Source: Paracoccaceae bacterium (GTDB lineage: Bacteria > Pseudomonadota > Alphaproteobacteria > Rhodobacterales > Rhodobacteraceae). From it: a stretch of 64,000 nucleotides of DNA. Position numbers and translations under genes: made by a program. The notes beneath the pieces were generated by a model. The model did not search any database. It was not told where the DNA came from and worked only from the letters and a program-made list of their open reading frames with translations. The stretch covers positions 23,851-87,850 of the forward strand of contig JAIXPH010000002.1 in the NCBI GenBank assembly GCA_027486345.1, written 5' to 3'. Numbering within the stretch: the stretch's first letter is position 1; every line of letters starts with the position of its first letter. This document shows positions 36,297-40,454 of this stretch, in pieces.

Positions 36297-39200
36297 ATGC
36301 CCGATAACAAGGTCGACGGAACCGACGCCTCCGAGAACCTCGCGCCGGGGGTCACCGATGCCCAGGGCGATCAGATCGGCGCGGGCAATGATCTGGTCTA
36401 TGGCAATGGCGGGGCGGACACGATCACGGGCGGCGGCGGGGATGACACCCTCTTTGGCGGTCTGGGGCGCGACTACATCTATGGTGGGACGGGCAACGAT
36501 TATCTGGACGGTGGCGCGGATTACGACTTTTTCTATGGCGGGTCCGGCAATGACACGATCCTGATCTCGCCCATCGGGGAATCCGCCTTTGGCGAGGCCG
36601 ATGCCGATACGTTCATCGTCGTGCCTGACGCGATCGGCTTCATCCCCGGCGGGTCGCTGCACGTGAACGGCGATTCCACGGGCATCGACATGGACACGCT
36701 CGATCTGTCGCAGATGGCGGCGGATGGCTGGACCATCACCTCGACCACGCAGGCGACGGATGGGCAGGACAGCCCCTTCGTGGCCGGGAACGGCGGCTTC
36801 AACGGCACCTTCACCCTGACCAAGGCAGGGTTCCAGAGTTTCATCGTCAATTACGTCGATATCGAATCCTTCAAGCTGACCGCGCCCGGTCCCGTCGATG
36901 GCACGGCCGGATCGGACAGGATGGACCCGGGCTACACAGACGCACAGGGCGACGAGATCGATGGCAGCGATGGCCTGAACGACACGATCCTTGCCGCGGC
37001 AGGCGATGACGTGGTCGATGCCGGTCTGGGGGACGACACGGTCAAGGGCGGTATCGGCAACGATGTGCTGCAAGGCAATGTCGGCAATGACGCGCTGGAG
37101 GGCGAAGGCGGCGCTGACAGCCTTGTCGGCGGTGAAGGGACCGACAGCCTGATCGGCGGCGACGGGTCGGACACGCTGGTGGGCGGCCTCGGGGCGGATA
37201 CGCTGGCCGGCGGGGCGGGCGATGATGATATTGCTTTAAGTGGTGCCGATGTTGTTTCGGGCGGGTCGGGGGATGACGTCTTCGCCCTCGACCCAACCGA
37301 TTCCGCACCGGACATCGCCGCCACGGTGGATGGCGGAACGGATGCGACAGCCGGAGCACCGGATGATGCGGCTAACGGCAACGCGGGCGATGTGCTGGAC
37401 CTGTCCTCGGCCACCGCGCCGTTGACGGTGGTGCTGGGCGCGAACCCGGAAAGCGGCACGGTCAACGGTCTGGATGCTGACGCGGGCACCGACATCACCT
37501 TTGCCGAGATTGAACGGCTGCTGACCGGCTCCGGCAATGACACGCTCGCGGGTGGTGCCGCGACCGGCCCGATCTGGGCCGACACCGGCGCGGGCAACGA
37601 CAGCCTCACCGGCGGCGCGGGCAATGACACGCTGGCGGGCGGCGATGGCGCGGACACGCTCGCGGGCGGGGCGGGCAACGACAGCCTGATCGGCGGCGGG
37701 CAGGATGACATCTTCGTCCTCGCGCCGGGCTTTGGCACCGACATCGTGCTGGGTGGCGAGACCGGTGAGACCGTGGGCGACACGCTCGACGCGCGCCCGC
37801 TGACCGAAGGCGTGGCCGTGACCCTGACCGGGCCGGAGGCGGGCACGCTGACCGGACCCTCGGGCACCGTCGCCTTTGCCGAGATCGAGTCCATTCTCCT
37901 CGGCGCAGGCAATGACACCGTCACCGGGGGCAGCGGCAACGACAGCGTCGATGGCGGCGCGGGCAACGACAGCCTCACCGGCGGCGCGGGCAATGACACG
38001 CTGGCGGGCGGCGACGGCGCGGACACGCTCGCGGGCGGGGCGGGCAACGACAGCCTGATCGGCGGCGCGGGGGATGATGATTTCACCCTCGGCGCGGGCG
38101 ACAGCGCCTTGGGCGGCGCGGGCGATGACGAGTTCCGGATCGACCCCTCCCTGACCGGAACCGCGGGCATCACCGTGGTTGGCGGCGAGACGGCGGAAGA
38201 AGCCGTGATCGACCCGACCAACAATCCCGCCGGACGCATCGGCGACGTGCTGGACCTGCGTGGATTGACCGGCGTGGTGGTGACCTACACCAACCCCGAC
38301 CCGATCACCGGCACCTCCGAGGCCGGGACGGCCACCTATCTGAACGCAAGCGGCCAGCCCGTCACCATTACATTCAGCCAGATCGAGACGGTGCTGCTGG
38401 ACCGTGATGGCATCGTGGATGGCACGGCGGGCGGAGACCTGATGACGCCCACCAGTGGGCCGGGCGGCCTGCCCTATGCCGACGCGCAGGGTGACCAGAT
38501 CGACGGCACCGACGGCATCGCCGACTCGGTCCTCGGGGGTGCTGGCAACGACACCATCGATGCGGGACTCGGGGATGACACCATCGATGCGGGCAGCGGC
38601 GATGACTCTGTCGCCGGTGGCACGGGCAATGACCGGCTGCTGGGCAATGACGGCAATGACACGCTGGCCGGTGGAGATGGCGCCGACAGTCTGGCGGGCG
38701 GGGCCAATGACGACAGCCTGACCGGAGGCATTGGCGGCGACACGCTGGAAGGCGATCTGGGCGAGGACACGCTGCGCGGCGAGGACGGTGCCGACACGCT
38801 GACGGGCAATGCCGGGAATGACAGCCTCGATGGTGGCGCGGGGGATGACTCCGTGATCGGGGGGGACGGGCGGGACACCGTCGATGCCGGTGAAGGGGAT
38901 GATTTCATCAACACCCGCGCCACGGCAGCGCGGCCGGATGCGGGCTTTCCGGGCTTTGGTCCGGTGCCCGCGATCCCGACCGATACCGACCCGACCGACG
39001 ACCGCGACGTGGTCACCGCGGGGGCGGGCAATGACACGATCCTCACCGGAGACGATGCCGACCTGATCGATGCGGGCAGCGGGGACGACACCGTTGACGC
39101 GGGCGTGGACAATGACACCGTGCTGGGCGGCGACGGCGCGGACACCATCACCGGCGGCGAAGGACGCGACAGCCTCGACGGTGGCGTGGGCGATGATGTG

Positions 39201-40454
39201 ATCGACGGGGGTGATCCGACCCTCCCGCAGGCCGATATTGCCGACACGCTGGGCGATCCCTTGACTGGCAACAACGCCGATACATTGTCGGGCGGCGACG
39301 GCGACGACACGTTGCGGGGTGGCGATGACGGCGACATTCTGTTGGGCGGGGCGGACCGAGACCTGCTGGATGGTGGTGTCGATCATGACACGCTGGACGG
39401 GGGCACCGGGGCGGACAGCCTGATCGGCGGTCAGGGCAATGACTCTCTGGTTGGCGGCGCGGGGGATGACACGCTCGACGGCGGCGACGGGCGCGACACG
39501 CTGGTCGGCGGGACCGGCACCGACCGTCTGAACGGCGGGCTGGGCGCGGATGTCTTTGTTGCCGATGGCAGCACGCCGGATGTCATCACCGACTTCGATG
39601 CGGTGACGGGCATCAGCACCGGCCAGTCGGGGGCTGCGCAGGATGACAATGACTTCGTGTCGCTCGCCTCGTTCTACAATGCCGCGAGTTTGGCGGCGTG
39701 GAATGCGGCCAATCCCGGCCAACGCTTTGACTCGGCGCTGGACTTCCTGCGCGCCGATCAGGCCGACGGCATCCTGCAGCAGGCGGGCGGACTGGTTGTG
39801 CAAAGCGGCGGTGCGGCCGTGGCGGCGGCGCTGCTCAACACCGAAAACACCGGCGTCGTCTGCTTCACCCGTGGCACCCGCATCCTGACCGCCGATGGCG
39901 AGCGTCCGATCGAGACGCTGTCCTCCGGTGATCTGGTCCTGACGCTGGACCATGGCTATCAGCCGATCCGCTGGATCGGGTCCACCACGGTTGCGGCAGA
40001 GGGAAAGTGCGCCCCCATCCGGATCGAGGCGGGTGTCTTGGGCAACCACAGCCCGCTGCGCGTCAGTCCCCAGCATCGGATGTTGCTTGCGGGCTGGGAG
40101 GCCGAGTTGCTTTACGACGCGGCCGAGGTGCTCGTGGCGGCCAAGATGCTGGTCAATGATCAGACCATCCGCCGCGATGAGGGTGGCATGGTGGAGTATT
40201 TCCACATGCTCTTCGATGGCCATGAGGTGATCTATGCCGAAGGCGCGGCCTCGGAAAGTTTCCATCCCGGTCAGGTCGGCTGGGGCGCTTTGGCCGAGGA
40301 GGCACGGGCCGAGATCCTGTCGCTGTTCCCGCTGCTGGCAACCGGGGGGCTGGAGGCTTATGGACCCAGCGCCAGACGCGGCCTGACCGCGATGGAAGCC
40401 ACGGTGGCGGCGGAGTTCTTGCTGCGCCCCTGCCCGGCGGCGGCGGCGGAATAA
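36297..40454 (+). CDS. Large RTX-repeat (hemolysin-type Ca-binding GGxGxD) protein with C-terminal Hint (Hedgehog/intein-like) domain
   Basis: 1385-aa ORF carrying dozens of GGxGxDxL/I nonapeptide repeats in three modules. From Cys1189 (TGC at 39861) it reads VCFTRGTRILTADGERPIETL...HMLFDGHEVIYAEGAASESF, the Hint_2-type domain common in Rhodobacterales. No N-terminal signal peptide. Confidence 0.9.
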   Translation: MPDNKVDGTDASENLAPGVTDAQGDQIGAGNDLVYGNGGADTITGGGGDDTLFGGLGRDYIYGGTGNDYLDGGADYDFFYGGSGNDTILISPIGESAFGEADADTFIVVPDAIGFIPGGSLHVNGDSTGIDMDTLDLSQMAADGWTITSTTQATDGQDSPFVAGNGGFNGTFTLTKAGFQSFIVNYVDIESFKLTAPGPVDGTAGSDRMDPGYTDAQGDEIDGSDGLNDTILAAAGDDVVDAGLGDDTVKGGIGNDVLQGNVGNDALEGEGGADSLVGGEGTDSLIGGDGSDTLVGGLGADTLAGGAGDDDIALSGADVVSGGSGDDVFALDPTDSAPDIAATVDGGTDATAGAPDDAANGNAGDVLDLSSATAPLTVVLGANPESGTVNGLDADAGTDITFAEIERLLTGSGNDTLAGGAATGPIWADTGAGNDSLTGGAGNDTLAGGDGADTLAGGAGNDSLIGGGQDDIFVLAPGFGTDIVLGGETGETVGDTLDARPLTEGVAVTLTGPEAGTLTGPSGTVAFAEIESILLGAGNDTVTGGSGNDSVDGGAGNDSLTGGAGNDTLAGGDGADTLAGGAGNDSLIGGAGDDDFTLGAGDSALGGAGDDEFRIDPSLTGTAGITVVGGETAEEAVIDPTNNPAGRIGDVLDLRGLTGVVVTYTNPDPITGTSEAGTATYLNASGQPVTITFSQIETVLLDRDGIVDGTAGGDLMTPTSGPGGLPYADAQGDQIDGTDGIADSVLGGAGNDTIDAGLGDDTIDAGSGDDSVAGGTGNDRLLGNDGNDTLAGGDGADSLAGGANDDSLTGGIGGDTLEGDLGEDTLRGEDGADTLTGNAGNDSLDGGAGDDSVIGGDGRDTVDAGEGDDFINTRATAARPDAGFPGFGPVPAIPTDTDPTDDRDVVTAGAGNDTILTGDDADLIDAGSGDDTVDAGVDNDTVLGGDGADTITGGEGRDSLDGGVGDDVIDGGDPTLPQADIADTLGDPLTGNNADTLSGGDGDDTLRGGDDGDILLGGADRDLLDGGVDHDTLDGGTGADSLIGGQGNDSLVGGAGDDTLDGGDGRDTLVGGTGTDRLNGGLGADVFVADGSTPDVITDFDAVTGISTGQSGAAQDDNDFVSLASFYNAASLAAWNAANPGQRFDSALDFLRADQADGILQQAGGLVVQSGGAAVAAALLNTENTGVVCFTRGTRILTADGERPIETLSSGDLVLTLDHGYQPIRWIGSTTVAAEGKCAPIRIEAGVLGNHSPLRVSPQHRMLLAGWEAELLYDAAEVLVAAKMLVNDQTIRRDEGGMVEYFHMLFDGHEVIYAEGAASESFHPGQVGWGALAEEARAEILSLFPLLATGGLEAYGPSARRGLTAMEATVAAEFLLRPCPAAAAE
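37587..37698 (+). repeat. Intragenic direct repeat, copy 1 (112 bp)
   Basis: Matches 37956-38067 at 111 of 112 positions; the single difference is GATGGC versus GACGGC. The offset of 369 bp keeps the frame. It encodes GAGNDSLTGGAGNDTLAGGDGADTLAGGAGNDSLIGG. Confidence 0.9.
37956..38067 (+). repeat. Intragenic direct repeat, copy 2 (112 bp)
   Basis: See copy 1; compared base by base by eye. Confidence 0.9.

What the first reader, a model, noticed from the sequence alone, without database searches (positions are those of the whole stretch)
36297..40454. 1385-aa RTX-repeat protein ending in a Hint (Hedgehog/intein-like) autoprocessing domain, with no secretion genes nearby
Seen:
- The ORF has dozens of GGxGxD nonapeptide repeats and no N-terminal signal peptide.
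- From Cys1189 (39861) to about 40270 it carries a Hint-type module: VCFTRGTRILTADGERPIETLSSGDLVLT...HMLFDGHEVIYAEGAASESF.
- A tail of only about 60 aa follows.

Established: RTX proteins are normally exported by type I secretion through an uncleaved C-terminal signal. Hint domains catalyse an N-to-S acyl shift at their first Cys and release or transfer the upstream polypeptide. In polymorphic toxins they normally precede a toxin domain.

Inference: here the Hint module occupies the position where a T1SS signal would sit and has no downstream toxin, so the cargo would be the RTX region itself, a Hedgehog-like logic. No T1SS ABC/MFP/OMP genes are in the window. The mechanism of export and the role of processing are open.
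Basis: partly seen in the sequence, partly recalled or inferred. Interest (0 to 1): 0.65.

Follow-up and report, generated by a model that had tools for sequence, protein, structure and literature searches.

The report
RTX protein ending in self-cleaving Hint module
This is a real but ordinary member of a very large, already annotated family of alphaproteobacterial proteins, in which a variable and often calcium-binding-repeat "passenger" is fused to a fixed C-terminal intein-like self-cleaving module whose role in the cell has never been worked out.

Summary
ORF 36297-40454 (+) encodes a 1385-aa acidic protein with seven RTX blocks (36 strict GGxGxD), no signal peptide, and a full-length Pfam Hint_2 match (aa 1188-1326, E=3.9e-53) starting at Cys1189. 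No T1SS gene lies in the 64 kb.

It is not unusual. The Hint+tail module defines a family of about 18,400 clusters at 50% identity, found in Rhodobacterales and Rhizobiales and labelled "Hint domain-containing protein" in RefSeq-style annotation. In every complete member I examined the module is C-terminal. RTX repeats precede it in 55 of 58 large members. By its motifs it corresponds to the B-type bacterial intein-like (BIL) domains described in 2003-2004.

- The "tail" is not a remnant: aa 1327-1367 are as conserved as the Hint core.
- The geometry is fixed: Cys1 to the protein end has a median of 191 aa.
- Almost no family member has a Sec signal or a linked secretion gene.
- The canonical block-B histidine is replaced in about half the family.

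Most likely mechanism: an N-S acyl shift at Cys1189 releases the RTX passenger, with export through an unlinked type I system. The export route and the tail's role remain open. Verdict: new member of a known kind, modest interest.

The parts
36297..40454 (+). Complete CDS, 1385 aa, including the stop codon: RTX passenger + junction domain + Hint_2 + conserved extension
36402..39560 (+). RTX passenger region. Seven beta-roll blocks: aa 36-89, 233-368, 394-465, 544-614, 747-872, 908-970, 1035-1088. Non-repeat spacers between them end in F(A/S)(E/Q)IE motifs. Three (Y/V)xDAQGDxI motifs at aa 19, 213 and 727. The whole 1385-aa protein has 247 D+E against 40 K+R.
37586..38099 (+). Recent internal duplication inside the RTX region (37586-37730 and 37955-38099, 91-96% identical)
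39582..39860 (+). Junction domain, aa 1096-1188: RTX cap VITDFD, then DNDFV.L..FYN...NAANP...LRADQADG...ENTGVV. Folded in the model (aa 1121-1180, pLDDT 75-94), then a flexible linker just before the cleavage site.
39861..39863 (+). Codon of Cys1189, the predicted nucleophile of the N-S acyl shift. Invariant in 116/116 and 134/134 aligned sequences.
39858..40274 (+). Hint_2 (PF13403) core, aa 1188-1326. Block A CFTRGTRILT; block B T1216-L-D1218-H1219; near-invariant H1260, H1303, H1309, E1320, S1321. No terminal His-Asn.
40275..40397 (+). Conserved helical extension, aa 1327-1367 (R1337, E1339-I-L, L-F-P1345, Y-G1356, A-R1360, L1363, E1367). Present at fixed length across the family.
40398..40451 (+). 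Variable extreme C-terminus, aa 1368-1385

Best explanation
The gene encodes a secreted-type, calcium-binding RTX 'passenger' (aa 1-1188) fused to a self-processing C-terminal cassette of about 197 aa. The cassette is a Hint_2 / B-type bacterial-intein-like domain plus a conserved helical extension of about 41 aa. Proposed mechanism: the Hint fold drives an N-S acyl shift of the Val1188-Cys1189 peptide bond onto the Cys1189 thiol, assisted by Thr1216 and His1219 of block B. The thioester is then resolved, most simply by water, which releases the RTX passenger from the Hint+extension fragment. There is no terminal Asn and no +1 nucleophile, so splicing cannot occur. Export is most likely through a type I secretion system encoded elsewhere in the genome. 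Shown here: domain identity, fold, residue conservation, family architecture, absence of a Sec signal, absence of linked transporters. Inferred: that cleavage occurs at all, when it occurs relative to export, and the export route.
For: Full-length Hint_2 match, E=3.9e-53. Hint fold confirmed by AlphaFold plus Foldseek, with BIL, intein and Hedgehog hits at prob 1.00. Cys1189 and Thr1216 are invariant; D1218, H1260, H1303, H1309, E1320 and S1321 are each conserved in at least 97% of 134 aligned sequences, the query included. No His-Asn end motif. Reviews state that BIL domains lack the +1 nucleophile and yield mainly cleaved products, and that B-type BILs cleave at their N- or C-termini (PMC7664689; PMC5874633; PMC7765530). 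The module is C-terminal in all 66 locus ORFs, and in all 150 top representatives it lies at or within about 45 residues of the end, behind passengers of very different length and content. That pattern is what one expects of a cassette acting on whatever lies upstream. RTX repeats occur in 83/133 representatives and 55/58 of those of 800 aa or more. 52 of 53 complete members and the query lack an N-terminal hydrophobic segment. The protein is very acidic, as T1SS substrates are. A secreted R. pomeroyi RTX-repeat protein with an intein-like domain gave no peptides from the intein region in the exoproteome (PMC2953401), a precedent in the same bacterial group.
Against: There are no experimental data for this protein or any close relative. 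No T1SS genes are in the window or in 77 related loci, so the export route is unsupported by linkage. A Hint domain that folded and cleaved in the cytoplasm would detach the passenger from any signal in the tail. So either the order of events or the signal's location must be non-canonical. The block-B His is replaced by N, R or S in about half of the diverse family members, so the family's chemistry may not be textbook. The equation Hint_2 = B-type BIL rests on motif descriptions and on my memory of Amitai 2003 and Dassa 2004, which could not be read.
Confidence: 0.55

Rival explanations
1. Cleave-then-export. The Hint cassette cleaves in the cytoplasm and so unmasks a type I secretion signal in the junction domain (aa 1096-1188), which becomes the new free C-terminus. 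The cassette would act as a removable cap or timer and would stay in the cell.
For: After cleavage the passenger has the canonical T1SS-substrate layout: RTX blocks, a cap motif VITDFD, then about 90 non-repeat residues. The distance from last RTX unit to Cys1 is tightly distributed in 130 members (median 95.5 aa, IQR 81-105). Hint-less RTX proteins in the same loci carry 69-78 aa after their last repeat. The cap-to-Cys1 distance has a median of 91 aa. The junction domain is folded in the model and followed by a flexible linker at the cleavage site. This removes the difficulty of threading a folded Hint domain through a T1SS.
Against: Only 59 of 130 RTX-bearing members have a recognisable cap motif in that region, and members fall into several unrelated pre-Hint classes. 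Similarity between pre-Hint regions and Hint-less RTX C-termini is mostly due to the repeats themselves. No Hint-less protein ending in the junction domain was found, though that search was insensitive. Small non-RTX members have no such region.
Confidence: 0.15
2. Hedgehog-like transfer. The conserved extension (aa 1327-1367) acts like the sterol/adduct-recognition region of Hog domains. It recruits a specific nucleophile (a lipid, envelope glycan, peptidoglycan amine or another protein) that resolves the Cys1189 thioester, so that the RTX passenger ends up covalently tagged or anchored.
For: The layout, a Hint of about 140 aa plus a conserved C-terminal region of about 41-59 aa, parallels Hog = Hint + SRR/ARR (PMC2362128). 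The extension is as conserved as the catalytic core and fixed in length, which implies a function beyond a spacer. Hedgehog 1at0 is among the top structural matches. The passenger is the variable part, as in Hog proteins.
Against: The extension is mildly acidic, not hydrophobic (maximum KD19 of 1.05) and only weakly amphipathic, unlike a sterol- or lipid-binding segment. No sequence similarity to the SRR was shown. The residue before Cys1 is Val/Ile, not the Gly of Hedgehog. No candidate acceptor or partner gene is conserved nearby. The extension could simply be a structural part of this Hint subtype or a secretion signal.
Confidence: 0.12
3. The Hint module does not cleave in vivo. It would be a structural or binding domain, for example a plug or retention domain, or a degenerate relic at the end of an RTX adhesin.
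For: The canonical block-B His is dispensable in half the family. No cleavage data exist. The query has S1252 where 113/116 relatives have R.
Against: Cys1 is invariant in 134/134 aligned sequences and Thr1216 likewise. Strong purifying selection on many polar residues around the predicted active site is hard to explain for a non-catalytic domain. Reviews report that B-type BILs cleave in vitro.
Confidence: 0.1
4. Polymorphic-toxin arrangement: the Hint domain releases the C-terminal 59 aa as a small toxin or effector peptide.
For: HINT is a common releasing peptidase just upstream of toxin domains (PMC3482391).
Against: The tail is conserved, not polymorphic, and only 59 aa long. No Asn or other C-terminal cleavage motif is present. 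No immunity-type gene follows: the next gene is a convergent DUF2201/MoxR pair. No TPS, PAAR, RHS or signal-peptide trafficking domain is present. The table of that survey that was read lists HINT under T2SS and T5SS, and its text adds T7SS and TcdB/TcaC, with no mention of T1SS.
Confidence: 0.02

Closest known systems
B-type bacterial intein-like (BIL) domains (Amitai et al. 2003; Dassa et al. 2004), equivalent here to Pfam Hint_2 PF13403 and RefSeq 'Hint domain-containing protein'
   Same: Hint fold. Cys1 and blocks A, B and F are present. No intein-type C-terminal His-Asn or +1 nucleophile. Sits in hypervariable, non-conserved, secreted-type bacterial proteins, often next to RTX repeats. 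Many paralogues per genome in Rhodobacter-group bacteria. Expected to cleave, not splice.
   Different: Nothing substantive was found. This appears to be a member. The points added here are a conserved ~41-aa extension, fixed distances, a dispensable block-B His and a family-wide lack of Sec signals and linked transporters. They may or may not be in the original papers, which could not be read.
Hedgehog / Hog autoprocessing domain (Hint + sterol/adduct recognition region)
   Same: C-terminal Hint with Cys-Phe start. The released product is the upstream 'signalling/passenger' part. A conserved region follows the Hint core. Structural match to 1at0.
   Different: No N-terminal signal peptide. 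Val, not Gly, precedes the Cys. The extension is not hydrophobic. About 15% sequence identity in the structural alignment. No evidence of adduct transfer.
HINT releasing peptidases of polymorphic toxins (CdiA/MafB/Rhs-type; Zhang et al. 2012)
   Same: A bacterial Hint domain in large, repeat-rich, exported proteins.
   Different: There the Hint precedes a variable toxin plus an immunity gene and uses T2SS/T5SS/T7SS/Tc routes. Here the variable part is upstream, the downstream tail is short and conserved, and there is no immunity gene.
Self-processing RTX proteins: FrpC self-processing module (Neisseria) and the MARTX cysteine protease domain
   Same: Concept only: an RTX/T1SS protein that cuts itself after export to release or cross-link a fragment.
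   Different: Unrelated folds and chemistry (Ca-dependent Asp-Pro cleavage; InsP6-activated C80 protease). No sequence match was found in Pfam or NCBIfam. This comparison rests on my own knowledge.
R. pomeroyi secreted RTX-repeat protein YP_168868 with an internal intein-like domain (PMC2953401)
   Same: A roseobacter-group protein with RTX-type repeats and a Hint-type domain, shown to reach the medium. The intein region was not detected by MS.
   Different: That domain is internal (aa ~158-359), ends in His-Asn (A-type/intein-like), and the RTX repeats lie downstream of it.

Membership tests
Pfam Hint_2 (PF13403) / 'Hint domain-containing protein' | Profile match above the curated gathering score over the whole model | tested here: met
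   180.2 bits against a cut-off of 28.4, model positions 1-147/147, E=3.9e-53
Pfam Hint_2 (PF13403) / 'Hint domain-containing protein' | Hint (Hedgehog/intein) fold | tested here: met
   AlphaFold core pLDDT about 90. Foldseek PDB hits to BIL, intein and Hedgehog domains, prob 1.00, TM (target) 0.55-0.69.
Pfam Hint_2 (PF13403) / 'Hint domain-containing protein' | Module at the extreme C-terminus with the family's conserved extension | tested here: met
   Query: Cys1 to end = 197 aa. Family median 191 aa, range 184-207. Extension residues conserved.
B-type bacterial intein-like (BIL) domain | N-terminal nucleophile and intein blocks A, B and F present | tested here: met
   C1189-F; T1216-x-x-H1219; YFH..FD.HE..YAEG resembles block F. 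Criterion taken from PMC7765530.
B-type bacterial intein-like (BIL) domain | Lacks the intein C-terminal motif (His-Asn) and a +1 nucleophile | tested here: met
   The core ends ...AEGAASESFHPG with no HN. Criterion from PMC7765530 and PMC7664689.
B-type bacterial intein-like (BIL) domain | Located in variable, non-conserved bacterial proteins of secreted type | tested here: met
   Passengers of 30-2,500+ aa with unrelated content. No synteny even with the 85%-identical relative. Criterion from PMC5874633.
B-type bacterial intein-like (BIL) domain | Direct sequence match to the type sequences of Amitai 2003 / Dassa 2004 | not testable with these tools
   The papers are not held and no reference sequences were available. 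No solved structure of this subtype was found by sequence.
B-type bacterial intein-like (BIL) domain | Autocatalytic N- and/or C-terminal cleavage | not testable with these tools
   Needs protein expression and mass spectrometry.
Classical intein | Inserted in a conserved host protein, with a C-extein starting with Cys/Ser/Thr after a His-Asn end | tested here: not met
   Terminal position, no HN, no conserved host protein.
Hedgehog/Hog domain | Gly-Cys-Phe cleavage site and an N-terminal secretion signal | tested here: not met
   Cys-Phe is present but the -1 residue is Val (family: V/I/P/A). No signal peptide.
Hedgehog/Hog domain | A C-terminal sterol/adduct recognition region after the Hint core | tested here: inconclusive
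   A conserved 41-aa extension occupies the same position, but it is not hydrophobic and no homology to the SRR was shown.
Polymorphic toxin with HINT releasing peptidase | Hint immediately upstream of a variable C-terminal toxin domain, with an adjacent immunity gene | tested here: not met
   Conserved 59-aa tail. The downstream gene is a convergent DUF2201/MoxR pair. Criterion from PMC3482391.
RTX / type I secretion substrate | Blocks of GGxGxD nonapeptides, acidic composition, no N-terminal signal peptide | tested here: met
RTX / type I secretion substrate | Uncleaved secretion signal in the last ~60 aa directly after the repeats | tested here: inconclusive
   About 290 aa (junction + Hint + tail) follow the last repeat. 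The signal could lie in the tail or in the junction domain.
RTX / type I secretion substrate | Dedicated ABC transporter, membrane fusion protein and TolC-like gene | tested here: not met
   Absent from the window and from 77 related loci. Linkage is not obligatory. The rest of the genome could not be searched.

The most novel reading that the evidence does not exclude
The Hint_2 core plus its conserved 41-aa extension could be a bacterial counterpart of the eukaryotic Hog domain. In this reading the extension selects a non-water nucleophile (an envelope lipid or glycan, a peptidoglycan amine or a partner protein), so that thousands of signal-peptide-less passengers, RTX arrays included, become covalently tagged or surface-anchored through a thioester-transfer reaction. 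Alternatively the cassette could itself be a new kind of C-terminal export-and-release signal used across Rhodobacterales.
Probability: 0.12. Interest if true: 0.8.

Novelty: new member of a known kind. Interest (0 to 1): 0.3.

Why it matters
The gene on its own matters little, because it is one of thousands of paralogous "Hint domain-containing proteins". The family is a different matter. It is one of the largest protein families of marine and freshwater Rhodobacterales, and PF13403 is over-represented in fast-growing "bloomer" Rhodobacteraceae (PMC12487129). Yet I found no report of its export route, its processing in vivo or the role of its conserved extension. If the module proves to be a general release or tagging device for type I secreted proteins, that would explain how these bacteria decorate their surface or surroundings. 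It would also supply a compact self-cleaving tag for protein engineering.

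Tried and rejected
1. Sequence search of the Hint+tail against PDB chains gave no meaningful hit. Only fold comparison worked.
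2. Exact-protein look-up found the protein not on record, so the source genome could not be retrieved and its T1SS genes could not be searched.
3. Search for a conserved neighbour. Clustering 844 ORFs from 77 loci gave only antisense shadow ORFs of the Hint gene and generic ABC-uptake, LysR and SDR families. A motif screen for long ABC exporters gave one hit of 533 aa. A Pfam census of 137 neighbours from 41 loci showed no HlyD, ABC_membrane, OEP or C39 family among families with two or more members. A linked partner is rejected.
4. Synteny with the window: none, even for the 85%-identical relative.
5. Phage or GTA link: no hit in 50,697 phage records and no GTA-like genes in the window.
6. 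Junction domain as an autonomous C-terminal domain: the single-sequence and profile searches returned only four proteins, all truncated or frameshifted Hint genes. The searches were too insensitive to settle the question.
7. BLAST of Hint-less RTX C-termini against pre-Hint regions: the matches are dominated by the repeats and one ORF contained a masked N-run. Not usable as evidence of homology.
8. Upstream spacer 35563-36296: no Rfam family and no sigma-70-like promoter. Across the scanned 35400-40700, terminator-like sites were no more frequent than in shuffles.
9. Literature: the primary BIL papers are not held. Searches for Hint domain with exoproteome, Roseobacter or type I secretion, and for 'Hint domain-containing protein', found nothing on function.
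10. The polymorphic-toxin and classical-intein readings were rejected on architecture.

Full report

Yes. The ORF listing returns a single 1385-aa ORF at 36297-40454 on the + strand. It starts at the first possible start codon after an upstream stop. Its codon-position GC pattern (0.71/0.52/0.81) matches the window's other genes.

Pfam finds 21 HemolysinCabind stretches (E=2.8e-105) and one full-length Hint_2 (PF13403) match. That match covers model positions 1-147 of 147 at residues 1188-1326, with 180 bits against a cut-off of 28.4 and E=3.9e-53. NCBIfam gives only partial, below-cut-off matches to RTX-repeat families.

At the protein level there are 36 strict GGxGxD motifs and 63 relaxed nonapeptides in seven blocks. 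The protein has 247 acidic against 40 basic residues and only three cysteines, one of which is Cys1189 at nt 39861. At the DNA level the 27-nt period recurs at least 37 times, and one segment was duplicated recently (37586-37730 versus 37955-38099, 91-96% identical).

The N-terminus has no hydrophobic segment. An AlphaFold model of residues 1101-1385, built on 48 sequences, gives the Hint core a pLDDT of about 90. Foldseek against PDB returns BIL domains (6y75, 2lwy), class 1 and class 3 inteins and the Hedgehog autoprocessing domain 1at0, all at probability 1.00 with E of 1e-6 to 1e-5.

**2. Surroundings**

All GC3-supported ORFs of the window were scanned against Pfam.

- Upstream, on the minus strand: CoA-transferase, IclR, PutA, two SDRs, and a LytTR-domain regulator (34585-35562). 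The regulator has several N-terminal TM-like segments and is transcribed divergently from the target.
- Downstream and convergent: a DUF2201 metallopeptidase/VWA protein, a MoxR AAA ATPase and a 229-aa ORF with no family.
- The rest of the window is sugar and amino-acid uptake systems, catabolic enzymes and regulators.

There is no ABC exporter, membrane fusion protein, TolC-like protein or C39 peptidase, and nothing phage- or GTA-like. The 734-bp upstream spacer has no Rfam match and no consensus promoter.

**3. What the thing is: a family view**

A word-indexed search with the last 287 residues hit the candidate cap, with 1,464 proteins below 1e-5. Every hit that a source names is from Rhodobacteraceae, most are 300-400 aa, and PF13403 is their only or last domain. 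An exhaustive phmmer of the 198-aa Hint+tail against 1.84 billion 50%-identity representatives found:

| E-value cut-off | Clusters |
|---|---|
| ≤1e-3 | 18,408 |
| ≤1e-10 | 10,562 |
| ≤1e-30 | 2,000 |

In all 150 best hits the match lies at or close to the C-terminal end (within about 45 residues), in proteins of 229-3,216 aa.

In genome contigs, 583 stretches encode a relative. All 77 retained loci are from Rhodobacteraceae/Paracoccaceae, apart from two short, probably mis-binned MAG contigs. Single genomes carry many copies. In annotated plasmids there are 205 records, from Phaeobacter, Sinorhizobium, Paracoccus, Rhizobium and others, and the gene is labelled "Hint domain-containing protein". 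No phage record has it.

RTX repeats precede the module in 83 of 133 diverse representatives and in 55 of the 58 that are at least 800 aa long.

**4. Anatomy of the C-terminal cassette**

- **(a) The 59-aa tail is not a leftover.** In alignments of 116 close and 134 diverse sequences, residues 1327-1367 are as conserved as the Hint core: R1337, E1339-I-L, L-F-P1345, Y-G1356, A-R1360, L1363, E1367. Only the last ~18 residues vary. The model makes this region helical at pLDDT 64-83. It is mildly acidic, not hydrophobic and only weakly amphipathic.
- **(b) The geometry is fixed.** The distance from Cys1 to the protein end has a median of 191 aa, with a 5-95% range of 184-207. Proteins end within about 10 residues of the same alignment point.
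- **(c) Catalytic positions.** Counts in the 134 aligned sequences:

| Position | Conserved in |
|---|---|
| C1189 | 134/134 |
| T1216 | 134/134 |
| D1218 | 130/134 |
| H1260 | 133/134 |
| H1303 | 133/134 |
| H1309 | 133/134 |
| E1320 | 134/134 |
| S1321 | 133/134 |
| H1219 (canonical block-B His) | 70/134 (N in 36, R in 12, S in 5) |

  The query itself has H1219. The core ends ...AEGAASESFHPG, with no His-Asn and no +1 nucleophile. The residue before Cys1 is Val or Ile in most members.
- **(d) A junction domain.** Between the last RTX unit and Cys1 lies a region of regular length: median 95.5 aa, IQR 81-105, in 130 RTX-bearing members. In the query and many others it starts with the RTX cap motif (VITDFD). 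It continues as a recognisable domain (DNDFVDLS.FYN...NAANP...LRADQADG...ENTGVV). The model shows it as folded, followed by a flexible linker at the cleavage site.
- **(e) No Sec signal.** 52 of 53 complete family members, like the query, lack any N-terminal hydrophobic stretch.
- **(f) No conserved neighbour.**
  - ORF clustering over 77 loci gave only generic families.
  - A screen for long ABC exporters gave one hit.
  - A Pfam census of 137 neighbours from 41 loci showed no T1SS family.
  - The window shares no flanking gene even with the relative whose module is 85% identical.
  
  These are accessory genes in variable locations.

**5. Comparison with what is known**

Reviews describe bacterial intein-like (BIL) domains of types A and B as a third branch of the Hint superfamily. 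They are inserted in variable regions of non-conserved bacterial proteins. B-type domains keep the intein motifs except the C-terminal one, and they cleave at their N- or C-termini instead of splicing (PMC5874633, PMC7765530, PMC7664689). The module here meets each of those criteria.

From memory, not verified here because the papers are not held: Amitai et al. 2003 already noted BIL domains flanked by RTX repeats. Dassa et al. 2004 showed cleavage by a B-type domain from Rhodobacter sphaeroides.

Other frameworks fit less well:

- **Polymorphic toxins.** Their HINT sits just before a variable toxin. The table of the survey that was read lists HINT under T2SS and T5SS, and its text adds T7SS and TcdB/TcaC (PMC3482391). 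Here the variable part is upstream and the downstream tail is conserved, so that framework does not apply.
- **Hedgehog.** It fails on the signal peptide, on the Gly at position -1 and on the hydrophobic character of the SRR.
- **Precedent for secretion.** R. pomeroyi exports a protein with RTX-type repeats and an internal His-Asn-type intein-like domain, and that region gave no peptides in the exoproteome (PMC2953401).

**6. How it most likely works**

*Shown:* a structurally intact Hint domain with an invariant nucleophile, placed so that whatever lies upstream is the leaving group.

*Inferred:* an N-S acyl shift at Val1188-Cys1189 followed by resolution of the thioester, which frees the RTX passenger. 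Splicing is impossible without a C-terminal Asn and a +1 nucleophile.

*Export:* the calcium-binding repeats, the acidity and the lack of a Sec signal point to a type I system encoded elsewhere. Unlinked substrates are common in alphaproteobacteria (my own knowledge).

The main uncertainty is the order of events. A Hint domain that cleaved in the cytoplasm would separate the passenger from any signal in the tail. So there are two options. Either the cassette stays unfolded until it has been exported, with the signal in the tail. Or cleavage comes first and exposes a signal in the junction domain. The regular RTX-cap-to-Cys1 spacing, close to the 69-78 aa that follow the last repeat in Hint-less RTX proteins, gives the second option some support. 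My attempts to show homology or to find Hint-less proteins ending in that domain were inconclusive.

A third possibility is Hog-like transfer of the passenger to a specific acceptor chosen by the conserved extension. It is not excluded, and it is the most novel reading.

**7. Verdict**

The gene is a new member of a known kind. The family's biology remains largely unexplored, which gives the finding modest but not high interest.

Noticed in passing
window 34585-35562 (-) and spacer 35563-36296: A LytTR-domain regulator with several N-terminal TM-like segments is transcribed divergently from the RTX-Hint gene across a 734-bp spacer. LytTR proteins also neighbour family members in 2 of 41 other loci. 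The association is weak and untested.
   Followed up: partly
window 40569-43569 (-): A probable three-gene unit convergent with the target: a 229-aa ORF with no Pfam match, a MoxR-type AAA ATPase, and a DUF2201 metallopeptidase/VWA protein. The reading frames overlap.
   Followed up: no
window 37586-37730 and 37955-38099: A recent internal duplication within the RTX region (91-96% DNA identity), evidence of ongoing repeat expansion.
   Followed up: partly
L025, L027, L041, L042, L046, L059, L063 (N-termini of Hint-module ORFs): Many family members share an unnamed N-terminal motif, MPTTFNVISLGN.ADIDT.EGN...EN. It looks like a recurrent passenger domain with no signal peptide.
   Followed up: no
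window 39582-39860 (aa 1096-1188) and many family members: A conserved junction domain (ITDFD...DNDFVDLS.FYN...NAANP...LRADQADG...ENTGVV) immediately precedes Cys1. No Pfam family covers it. The four database hits to it are all truncated or frameshifted Hint genes.
   Followed up: partly
family alignment, window aa 1219 (nt 39951-39953): The canonical block-B histidine of Hint domains is replaced by Asn, Arg or Ser in about half of the diverse family members, whereas D1218, H1260, H1303 and H1309 are nearly invariant. This suggests a non-textbook active site.
   Followed up: partly
L029, L041, L042; Thalassobium loci L023, L025-L027: Paralogous Hint-module genes occur in tandem: two adjacent in L041 and L042, three in L029, and at least four within 170 kb in Thalassobium sp. 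R2A62.
   Followed up: no
L079 (Aliiroseovarius crassostreae plasmid NZ_CP080777.1) 8251-23516: A 1,437-aa Hint domain-containing protein lies immediately upstream of a 3,424-aa SpvB/TcaC N-terminal domain protein (toxin-complex type).
   Followed up: no
L037 (Pirellulales MAG, 2.2 kb) and L071 (Paraglaciecola MAG, 2.5 kb): Two very short contigs binned to non-alphaproteobacterial MAGs carry the module at 52-61% identity. The most likely explanation is mis-binned Rhodobacteraceae contigs, not lateral transfer.
   Followed up: no
L080 (Sinorhizobium meliloti megaplasmid CP050561.1) 9001-9633: In S. meliloti the annotated Hint domain-containing CDS is only 210 aa, and the match starts at its first codon, so it is a Hint-only protein or a mis-called start.
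   Followed up: no
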